This document shows positions 18,393 to 18,756 of a stretch of 64,000 nucleotides of DNA, one piece after another. Made by a program: the position numbers and the translations under genes. The DNA comes from Escherichia coli (GTDB lineage: Bacteria; Pseudomonadota; Gammaproteobacteria; Enterobacterales; Enterobacteriaceae): NCBI RefSeq assembly GCF_045037415.1, contig NZ_CP173438.1, one strand, 5' to 3'. The notes below the pieces were generated by a model. The model was not told the DNA's origin. It did no database searches and saw only the letters and a list, made by a program, of their open reading frames with translations. The first letter of the stretch is position 1; each line of letters starts with the position of its first letter.

Positions 18393-18420
18393 CCGCCAGA
18401 AAACATCTGGCGGTTTATTG
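18393..18420 (+). terminator. trp operon terminator
   Basis: CCGCCAGA-aaacat-TCTGGCGG followed by TTTATT. Confidence 0.8.
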
Positions 18421-18431
18421 ATGGTAAAAAA

Positions 18432-18569
18432 TTAGAAGCGGTAACCTGCAGAGAACATAAATACCCACGGGTCAAGGCGTACGTTGTCAGAATAACGCCC
18501 TGCAGGCAGCACTGCGCCGTTGGATTTATATTTCACTTCGGTATCGATATCCATGTACCAGACCGACAT
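18432..18569 (-). pseudogene. ompW: ompW 3-prime terminal fragment (about 45 codons) at chromosome/prophage junction
   Basis: Minus-strand translation MSVWYMDIDT...RLDPWVFMFSAGYRF-stop matches recalled OmpW C-terminus; nothing OmpW-like upstream; phage-type AT-rich DNA starts at about 18561. Confidence 0.6.
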
Positions 18570-18756
18570 GTTTTAAAAAATGCAATAAGACATTGTATCT
18601 GAAAGAAAAAACAGGATTTGAGGCGCTTTTTTATACCGTTTTTCCGTGTTTTTAACTGCCTGATTTTATTGAAATCTTTTTTAGTTTTGCAGAAAGGATT
18701 TTTTGCTCGATCGCTTTAATTTTATACATTCCTGATAACGGAAATTTTTTTGCCCG

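What the first reader, a model, noticed from the sequence alone, without database searches (positions are those of the whole stretch)
18419..18570. Prophage-chromosome junction in an ompW 3-prime fragment directly abutting the trp terminator; yciEFG apparently missing
The minus strand encodes about 45 codons ending ...RLDPWVFMFSAGYRF-stop, the OmpW C-terminus as I recall it, but nothing OmpW-like lies upstream; phage-type DNA follows. In K-12 yciG, yciF and yciE separate trpA from ompW, so either they are absent in this lineage or integration was accompanied by a deletion. The internal segment (TEVKYKSNGAVLPAGRYSDNV) may differ from host OmpW as I recall it, which would fit a phage-supplied replacement 3-prime end.
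Basis: partly seen in the sequence, partly recalled or inferred. Interest (0 to 1): 0.45.

Follow-up and report, generated by a model that had tools for sequence, protein, structure and literature searches.

The report
Prophage right junction inside ompW (ST131)
This is the ordinary right-hand junction (attR) of a known lambda-like prophage integrated into the ompW gene of an E. coli ST131-type chromosome. The 45-codon piece is the host's own displaced ompW tail, and yciE, yciF and yciG were already absent from this lineage before the phage arrived.

Summary
Window 18432-18569 (minus strand) is a 45-codon OmpW C-terminal remnant, 13 nt from the hairpin that follows trpA, and prophage DNA starts at 18570.

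- It is a prophage-chromosome junction (attR). The prophage is an ompW-integrating lambdoid of the "PPompW" type, apparently EC958 "Phi4", about 54 kb long and running past the window end.
- The fragment is not phage-supplied. It is 100% identical to the 3' end of uninterrupted ompW in prophage-free genomes such as G749. The phage-supplied 3' end sits at the other junction (attL, about 8.7 kb beyond the window, next to int/xis), where it completes a 212-aa OmpW in place of the native 217-aa protein.
- No deletion accompanied integration. About 690 of 5426 complete E. coli genomes have ompW directly abutting trpA, and 264 of them have an empty site. Three non-coli or divergent Escherichia genomes share the arrangement. 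4730 genomes carry yciEFG.

The exchange block is ATGTC[G/A]GTCTGGTACATGGATATCGATACC (18540-18569). The adjoining phage arm carries an arm-type site (TCTGCAAAAC) and a conserved IHF-like site.

ompW is a published integration hotspot, so this is already known and of low interest. The one mildly interesting consequence is that integration swaps OmpW's last surface loop.

The parts
17575..18381 (+). trpA, the last gene of the trp operon. Its last 5 codons (KATTRR) differ from K-12 (KAATRS).
   Evidence: ORF list, RefSeq annotation, alignment to K-12.
18390..18418 (.). Hairpin AAACCGCCAG-loop-CTGGCGGTTT, shared by convergent trpA and ompW and probably a bidirectional intrinsic terminator. It has the same CCGCCAG/CTGGCGG stem as the K-12 trp terminator.
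   Evidence: Folds on both strands with z -6.1 and -7.1. Compared with K-12. Not flagged by the simple scan.
18432..18569 (-). Promoterless ompW 3' remnant (45 codons plus stop). This is the host's native C-terminal end, displaced by integration. No Shine-Dalgarno sequence lies upstream of its ATG.
18432..18539 (-). B' arm: host DNA to the right of the exchange. It encodes the native loop EVKYKSNGAVLPAGRYSDN and the last strand VRLDPWVFMFSAGYRF.
   Evidence: 100% identical to the attB of G749, 382634_2f and Eco889. Diverges from attL and attP immediately after GATACC.
18540..18569 (.). Identity block shared by attR, attL, attB and attP (ompW sense: ATGTC[G/A]GTCTGGTACATGGATATCGATACC). In the related E2348/69 lysogen the exchange is confined to 26 bp, equivalent to 18540-18565.
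18570..18700 (.). P arm of the phage attachment site, AT-rich. It is conserved among three otherwise unrelated phage right ends only as far as about 18700.
   Evidence: Alignment of the window, the phage 204576 attP, PPompW_132418 and the E2348/69 attR.
18653..18665 (-). IHF-consensus match AATCAGGCAGTTA (WATCARNNNNTTR), within a block conserved in all four P arms.
18684..18693 (-). Arm-type integrase site candidate TCTGCAAAAC. The same 10-mer occurs three times in tandem in the P' arm between the phage-supplied ompW stop and int.
   Evidence: Single exact match in 64 kb. Three tandem matches in JJ1886 at L002 8700-8733, where 0 of 100 shuffles reached 3. Conserved in other phages.
18757..18786 (+). 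Sigma-70-like promoter (TTGACA-18-TATATT, 11 of 12 matches). It reads into the ash/Rha genes and away from the junction.
   Evidence: This is a consensus match only.
18757..19586 (+). The first phage genes after the junction: an ash-family regulator ORF (18757-19032) and a Rha-family regulator (19029-19586).
   Evidence: RefSeq annotation and PHROG matches.
18570..64000 (.). Lambdoid prophage body: tail fibres, tail, head, lysis and replication genes. It continues about 8.7 kb beyond the window to xis, int and attL, for a total of about 54 kb.
   Evidence: Collinearity with JJ1886 and the JJ1886 annotation.

Best explanation
Window 18419-18570 is the attR junction of a lambda-like prophage (the 'PPompW' kind, apparently EC958 'Phi4') that integrated by tyrosine-integrase site-specific recombination into the 3' part of ompW in an E. 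coli ST131-type chromosome.

The phage attP carries its own copy of the last 31 codons of ompW. After the exchange within the block ATGTC[G/A]GTCTGGTACATGGATATCGATACC, that phage copy completes ompW at attL, beside int/xis and outside the window. The result is a 212-aa chimeric OmpW.

The remnant abuts the trp terminator because this host lineage never had yciE, yciF or yciG between ompW and trpA. In this chromosomal haplotype ompW and trpA converge on one shared hairpin. Excision would rejoin the remnant to ompW and restore the native 217-aa protein.

Shown here: the identities of attB, attL, attR and attP, the arm-site repeats, and the population distribution. Inferred: Int, Xis and IHF binding, terminator function, and whether this particular copy can still excise.
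For: - Strain identity: the window is 100% identical to JJ1886 and other O25b:H4-type genomes across the junction.
- Other end: JJ1886 has intact ompW (639 bp), then int and xis. Both match integrase and excisionase PHROGs.
- Empty site: G749 has a 654-bp ompW 50 bp from trpA, and its flanking protein accessions are identical to JJ1886.
- Three-way alignment: attB equals attL to the left of the core and equals attR to the right of it. attL and attR diverge immediately after GATACC.
- Phage origin of the attL end: the right side of attL is identical in the contiguous attP of phage 204576, in the attL of PPompW_132418 (O145:H28) and in the attL of E2348/69. The integrases are 99.5-99.7% identical.
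- Attachment-site features: arm-type 10-mer, one copy in the P arm and three in the P' arm. P-arm conservation stops at about 18700 and includes an IHF-like site.
- Haplotype counts: 681-690 genomes carry the trpA-hairpin-ompW haplotype, 264 of them uninterrupted, and 344 have this exact phage junction. 4730 genomes carry yciEFG. The haplotype is also in E. whittamii, Escherichia sp. E1V33 and a divergent 'E. coli'.
- Literature: ompW is a described integration site and hotspot (PMC3603311). PPompW has a 121-bp att in ompW, and PCR for excised, circularised forms of the ompW, in-PPompW and yecE prophages is described there (PMC8112680). EC958 Phi4 has a truncated invertase and a 3.1-kb invertible tail-fibre segment at matching chromosomal coordinates (PMC4134206).
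Against: - attL itself is not in the window. It was read from JJ1886, which is 99.8-100% identical over the shared parts.
- One base in the core is unexplained: attL has A where attR (window 18564) and three empty sites have G. The cause could be a mismatch between attP and attB, an exchange at the extreme edge of the block, or a later synonymous SNP.
- The P arm of this phage ends ...AAAACATGTC, like host ompW. The 204576 and PPompW arms end ...CTACC. The attP of this exact phage was not seen as a free circle.
- The hairpin failed the simple terminator scan.
- Absence of yciEFG from the whole genome of this strain is inferred from complementary counts (4730 + 690 of 5426) and from about 150 kb examined. 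It was not shown by a whole-genome search of this strain.
- The identification with Phi4 rests on position and features, not on an EC958 sequence comparison.
Confidence: 0.93

Rival explanations
1. One reading: the fragment is a phage-supplied replacement 3' end of ompW, carried in by the prophage.
For: Its loop segment differs from K-12 OmpW, and phages of this type do carry an ompW 3' copy.
Against: The fragment and all DNA from it to trpA are identical to uninterrupted ompW in G749, and near-identical in 382634_2f and Eco889. 264 genomes have this uninterrupted form. The true phage copy is the one beside int, and it is identical in a free attP. Divergence from K-12 begins at about nt 240 of ompW, far upstream of the core at about nt 517-546, so it is a host haplotype and is not bounded by the att site.
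Confidence: 0.03
2. Integration, or later decay of the prophage, deleted yciE, yciF and yciG and fused the ompW remnant to the trp terminator.
For: K-12 and 4730 of 5426 genomes have yciEFG between ompW and trpA. Prophage ends are frequent deletion sites.
Against: Empty-site genomes already have the same 50-bp ompW-trpA spacer, base for base. Other phages (E2348/69) use the same haplotype. The arrangement also exists at 85-98% identity in E. whittamii, Escherichia sp. E1V33 and SCPM-O-B-8794, so it predates this prophage.
Confidence: 0.02
3. The 45-codon ORF is expressed as a small protein, or its transcript acts as a regulator, from phage-side transcription.
For: It starts with ATG and is an open frame.
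Against: The ATG is simply OmpW's internal Met. No Shine-Dalgarno sequence lies upstream. The only promoter-like site nearby points the other way. An isolated final strand with half a loop cannot form a barrel. RefSeq marks it as a pseudogene.
Confidence: 0.03

Closest known systems
PPompW lambda-like prophages of STEC O145:H28 (Nakamura et al. 2021, PMC8112680; GenBank LC5678xx)
   Same: The integrase is 99.7% identical. The phage-supplied ompW 3' end and the three tandem arm sites beside int are the same, the integration point in ompW is the same, and the lambdoid layout is the same.
   Different: In those K-12-type hosts the att duplication is 121 bp, because the host and phage ompW ends are similar and yciE follows the remnant. 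Here only a 30-bp block is shared, the remnant abuts trpA, and OmpW changes length (217 to 212 aa). The P arm beyond about 130 bp and the cargo differ: there are no T3SS effector genes in the window.
EC958 prophage Phi4 of ST131 (Forde et al. 2014, PMC4134206)
   Same: Matching chromosomal position (about 1.485 Mb in both EC958 and JJ1886), a truncated DNA invertase, and a roughly 3.1-kb invertible tail-fibre segment. That segment is inverted in the window relative to JJ1886.
   Different: No EC958 sequence was compared directly, so the identification rests on position and features. In the passages I read, the paper does not describe the ompW junction.
e14 and phage 21 integration into icd (cited as Wang et al. 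1997 in PMC3603311; further details from my own knowledge)
   Same: Integration occurs inside the 3' end of a protein-coding gene. The phage carries a substitute 3' end that keeps the gene open, and the displaced host end remains as a fragment at the other junction.
   Different: The target gene is different. According to PMC3603311, ORF length is preserved at icd. Here the substitute end changes a 19-residue surface loop to 14 residues.
Phage lambda attP/attR architecture (textbook knowledge)
   Same: A tyrosine integrase with an arm-binding domain plus an excisionase, three tandem arm-type sites in the P' arm, at least one arm-type site and an IHF-like site in a roughly 130-150 bp P arm, and a short core.
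   Different: The core lies in a coding sequence rather than between gal and bio. Protein binding was not tested.

Membership tests
Site-specific (tyrosine integrase) prophage junction, attR | An identity block shared by attL, attR, the empty attB and a free attP, with reciprocal flanks | tested here: met
   attB equals attL on the left and attR on the right. The phage 204576 attP equals attR-type on the left and attL on the right. One base (window 18564) differs between attL and attR.
Site-specific (tyrosine integrase) prophage junction, attR | Integrase and excisionase genes at the opposite end of the element | tested here: met
   JJ1886 L002 8740-10096 matches integrase and excisionase PHROGs at E 1.6e-77 and 3.7e-35. 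These genes lie outside the window.
Site-specific (tyrosine integrase) prophage junction, attR | Arm-type repeats and an IHF site in the phage arms | tested here: met
   TCTGCAAAAC occurs once in the P arm (18684-18693) and three times in the P' arm. An IHF-consensus match at 18653-18665 lies within a block conserved across the four P arms. These are sequence features only.
Site-specific (tyrosine integrase) prophage junction, attR | Excision regenerates attB and attP | not testable with these tools
   PMC8112680 describes PCR for excised, circularised forms of the related O145:H28 prophages, including PPompW. It was not shown for this ST131 copy, which carries an IS in lom and a truncated invertase.
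PPompW-type ompW-integrating lambdoid prophage | Integrase more than 90% identical to the PPompW integrase, and ompW split by the element (the search criteria of PMC8112680) | tested here: met
   99.7% amino-acid identity to the PPompW_132418 integrase. ompW is split into an intact chimeric gene plus a remnant.
PPompW-type ompW-integrating lambdoid prophage | 121-bp att duplication | tested here: not met
   In this host haplotype attL and attR share only the 30-bp block, and the rest of the ompW ends is diverged with a 15-nt length difference. This reflects the host allele, not a different phage system.
3'-end-replacing integration into a coding gene (the icd/e14 type) | The phage-borne substitute 3' end keeps the target ORF open and under purifying selection | tested here: met
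   The attL ompW is a 212-aa ORF annotated as intact. Over the last 16 codons, native versus phage copy shows 9 synonymous and 0 nonsynonymous differences.
OmpW family (for the fragment) | Homology to the OmpW C-terminus | tested here: met
   Identical to residues 173-217 of G749 OmpW. That protein aligns end to end with solved E. coli OmpW structures 2MHL and 2F1T (E about 1e-111).
OmpW family (for the fragment) | A complete signal peptide plus eight-strand barrel | tested here: not met
   Only 45 codons are present and nothing OmpW-like lies upstream. It is a pseudogene remnant.

The most novel reading that the evidence does not exclude
Integration acts as a lysogenic conversion of a surface receptor. 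By replacing the native last 36 residues of OmpW with the phage's 31, the prophage swaps the loop between the last two barrel strands, which I infer to be surface-exposed (EVKYKSNGAVLPAGRYSDN to TAKYKSGVTTVKDS), while keeping the final strand unchanged. This could alter recognition by OmpW-dependent phages, colicin S4 or antibodies in the ST131 lysogens, and excision would reverse it. A related open point is that the yciEFG-less ompW-trpA haplotype is shared with cryptic Escherichia clades, either as a trans-species polymorphism or by introgression.
Probability: 0.15. Interest if true: 0.4.

Novelty: already known. Interest (0 to 1): 0.1.

Why it matters
It matters little beyond correct annotation.

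- It shows that a short "OmpW family, partial" pseudogene next to trpA in ST131-type genomes is the attR scar of a known prophage.
- It corrects which ompW end is native and which is phage-supplied.
- It shows that the absence of yciEFG is a chromosomal haplotype found in about 13% of complete E. coli genomes, not damage from integration.

The practical value is in defining the prophage boundaries (18570 onward) and the att core for excision PCR. It also flags that ST131 lysogens and non-lysogens express OmpW proteins with different C-terminal loops.

Tried and rejected
- Arm-site search with 1-2 mismatches. It gave 85 hits against 70 expected, so it is uninformative. Only the exact 10-mer and its conservation across phages are used.
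- Simple terminator scan. It did not flag the 18390-18418 hairpin, probably because the longest stem absorbs the T run. The terminator call therefore rests on fold energy and on homology of the stem to the K-12 trp terminator.
- Pinning the exchange point using the G/A difference at 18564 and the E2348/69 lysogen. E2348/69 has G at both junctions, so it bounds the exchange to 26 bp but does not resolve the side.
- An ancient phage origin for the native ompW 3' end. Rejected because divergence from K-12 starts at about nt 240 of ompW, well upstream of the core.
- Recent introgression of the yciEFG-less block from a cryptic clade. The hits are only 85-98% identical, with somewhat higher identity to E. 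whittamii over ompW. This is not decisive and was left open.
- Literature search on yciEFG absence in phylogroup B2. Nothing relevant was found.
- My first codon comparison used a slice three bases too long. It was redone correctly.

Full report
**What is at the coordinates**

The window carries trpD, trpC, trpB and trpA on the plus strand, with trpA ending at 18381. A hairpin follows at 18390-18418 (AAACCGCCAG / CTGGCGGTTT). It folds strongly as RNA on either strand: -20.4 and -21.1 kcal/mol, z -6.1 and -7.1, and no shuffle did as well.

Thirteen bases further on, the minus strand holds a 45-codon ORF at 18432-18569: MSVWYMDIDTEVKYKSNGAVLPAGRYSDNVRLDPWVFMFSAGYRF. Upstream of it, in ompW sense, the sequence is AT-rich non-coding DNA. 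Phage regulator genes follow: an ash-like ORF at 18757-19032 and a Rha-family gene at 19029-19586.

**Where the window comes from**

Bases 18100-19100 are 100% identical to many complete E. coli genomes, including JJ1886 and an O25b:H4 strain. 344 genomes cover at least 80% of this junction-spanning query. In JJ1886, RefSeq annotates the fragment as [quoted passage not shown].

The window is collinear with JJ1886 apart from three differences:
- a 3.1-kb inverted tail-fibre segment;
- a roughly 115-bp indel;
- the absence of JJ1886's ISEcp1-blaCTX-M-15 insertion.

**The other end of the prophage**

The prophage runs off the right end of the window. In JJ1886 it ends about 8.7 kb further on with xis, int and then a complete ompW of 639 bp (212 aa). 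The int and xis products match integrase and excisionase PHROGs. The element is therefore about 54 kb long, and ompW is split into a complete gene at the int end (attL) and the remnant in the window (attR).

**Which ompW end is native**

Strain G749 has no prophage here. Its TrpCF, TrpB, TrpA, YciC, YciB, YciA and TonB protein accessions are identical to those of JJ1886. It carries a 654-bp (217-aa) ompW just 50 bp from trpA.

Alignment of the sites gives a clear pattern:
- The G749 site (attB) is identical to JJ1886 attL from the ompW start to the block ATGTC[G/A]GTCTGGTACATGGATATCGATACC.
- G749 is identical to the window (attR) from that block through the ompW stop, the hairpin and into trpA.
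- Immediately after GATACC, attL and attR diverge.

The attL continuation is ACGGCTAAGTAC..., encoding TAKYKSGVTTVKDSVRLDPWVFMFSAGYRF and followed by three tandem TCTGCAAAAC repeats. It is identical in three other places:
- the contiguous attP of Escherichia phage 204576;
- the attL of PPompW_132418 from STEC O145:H28;
- the attL of the E2348/69 lysogen.

The fragment in the window is therefore the host's own displaced 3' end. The phage-supplied end is the one at attL.

**The attachment site**

The identity block occupies window 18540-18569. In E2348/69 the phage arm ends ...TCTACC instead of ...CATGTC, so its attL and attR share only 26 bp. Its integrase is 99.5% identical to the JJ1886 integrase. 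That bounds the exchange to the equivalent of 18540-18565.

Three otherwise unrelated phage right ends stay alignable with the window only from the core to about 18700. Within that span two features are conserved in all four P arms (CTGCAAAAC as a 9-nt core):
- the arm-type motif CTGCAAAAC at 18684-18692. The exact 10-mer TCTGCAAAAC is the only one in 64 kb. It occurs three times in tandem in the P' arm, and 0 of 100 shuffles gave three.
- an IHF-consensus match, AATCAGGCAGTTA, at 18653-18665.

This is the lambda-type layout. Protein binding is inferred, not shown.

One detail is unexplained. attL has A where attR (18564) and three empty sites have G. The change is synonymous. It could be a mismatch between attP and attB, an exchange at the very edge of the block, or a later SNP.

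**The missing yciEFG genes**

In K-12, yciG, yciF and yciE lie between trpA and ompW. Neither their DNA nor their proteins match the window or the roughly 87 kb of JJ1886 flanks that I held.

The distribution across 5426 complete E. coli genomes is:
- 4730 carry yciEFG;
- 681-690 carry the trpA-hairpin-ompW arrangement;
- of those, 264 have uninterrupted ompW;
- 344 have the window's exact phage junction.

Other lineages with the same arrangement include Eco889 and 382634_2f, both with empty sites. E2348/69 also has it, with a different PPompW-type prophage plus two IS elements between trpA and the remnant.

An exact-match scan of one genome per species found the hairpin in E. whittamii, Escherichia sp. 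E1V33 and a divergent "E. coli". In all three, trpB, trpA and ompW are collinear without yciEFG, at 85-98% identity to G749. The arrangement therefore long predates this prophage, and integration did not delete anything.

Relative to K-12, the haplotype is a diverged block:
- It runs from about nt 240 of ompW (identity falls from 97-100% to 42-85%) to the last five codons of trpA (KATTRR against KAATRS).
- The hairpin keeps the CCGCCAG/CTGGCGG stem of the K-12 trp terminator.
- The divergence begins far upstream of the att core, so the native end is not a relic of an earlier phage.

**Consequence for OmpW**

Native OmpW in this haplotype is 217 aa, and the lysogen's chimeric OmpW is 212 aa. 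Between the invariant strands ...WYMDIDT and VRLDPWVFMFSAGYRF, the segment changes from EVKYKSNGAVLPAGRYSDN to TAKYKSGVTTVKDS. K-12 has TANYKLGGAQQHDS there.

Across the last 16 codons, the native and phage copies differ at 9 codons, all synonymously. The phage copy is therefore maintained as a working end of the gene.

By the general topology of eight-stranded barrels such as OmpW (solved structures 2F1T and 2MHL), the segment between the last two strands should be an extracellular loop. That assignment is inference. The remnant itself has no Shine-Dalgarno sequence or inward promoter and is best regarded as silent.

**Comparison with what is known**

- Integration into ompW is described in the literature and ranked among the most occupied non-RNA hotspots (PMC3603311).
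- The PPompW prophages of O145:H28 have a 121-bp att in ompW. PCR for excised, circularised forms of the ompW, in-PPompW and yecE prophages is described in the same paper (PMC8112680).
- The ST131 element matches EC958 "Phi4" by chromosomal position, its truncated invertase and its 3.1-kb invertible tail-fibre segment (PMC4134206).
- The mechanism parallels e14 and phage 21 at icd.
- What differs here comes from the host allele. Only about 30 bp are shared instead of 121 bp, the remnant abuts trpA, and the OmpW loop and length change on integration.

**Verdict**

The finding is real, but it is an ordinary and already known kind of feature. The junction call is right. The "phage-supplied end" and "deletion with integration" ideas are wrong. 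Interest is low. The only reading with some novelty is that integration reversibly remodels an OmpW surface loop in ST131 lysogens, and that remains untested.

Noticed in passing
window 21422-24540: A 3.1-kb tail-fibre segment is inverted relative to JJ1886. It is flanked by tail-fibre assembly gene pairs and a truncated recombinase gene. It matches the invertible segment described for EC958 Phi4, which is thought to be flipped in trans by another prophage's invertase (PMC4134206).
   Followed up: partly
window ~37202 (tape-measure gene): The window has an uninterrupted tape-measure gene at the point where JJ1886 carries an ISEcp1-blaCTX-M-15 insertion. The window strain is therefore not JJ1886 itself.
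   Followed up: partly
window ~26553-29745: An IS21-family element (ISEc12, istA/istB) is inserted inside the prophage lom (Ail/Lom) gene and splits it. The coordinates were transferred from the JJ1886 annotation by an offset of 1901.
   Followed up: no
window ~34788-34809: About 115 bp present in JJ1886 (L001 36718-36834) are absent from the window. The site is near the C40 peptidase and hypothetical pseudogene fragments of the tail module.
   Followed up: no
window 18366-18381 and L004 (G749) ompW nt ~240-654: The yciEFG-less haplotype is a diverged block relative to K-12, running from mid-ompW to the last five codons of trpA. It is shared with E. whittamii, Escherichia sp. E1V33 and SCPM-O-B-8794. 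Identity to E. whittamii is higher over ompW (93-98%) than over trpA (85-90%), which hints at old inter-clade exchange.
   Followed up: partly
window 56637-56713 and 56814-56889 (minus strand): The prophage carries two tRNA genes downstream of its DNA methyltransferase. ARAGORN calls them Arg(TCT) and Met(CAT). RefSeq annotates the CAT one as tRNA-Ile, presumably lysidine-modified.
   Followed up: no
window ~5558-6898: Two hypothetical genes (about 103 and 341 aa) lie between cobO and rluB in a stretch of lower G+C (0.44). I do not recall them from K-12, so this may be a small accessory islet.
   Followed up: no
L009 774-2897 (E2348/69 derivative NZ_LT903847.1): In E2348/69 two IS elements (ISEc13 and IS200C) sit between trpA and the ompW remnant. 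A different PPompW-type prophage with a 99.5% identical integrase occupies the same site.
   Followed up: partly
window 18564 vs L002 8592 (JJ1886 attL): There is a single G/A difference inside the att identity block between attR and attL, and all three empty sites examined have G. In addition, this phage's P arm ends ...CATGTC, like host ompW, whereas phage 204576, PPompW and the E2348/69 attR end ...CTACC.
   Followed up: partly
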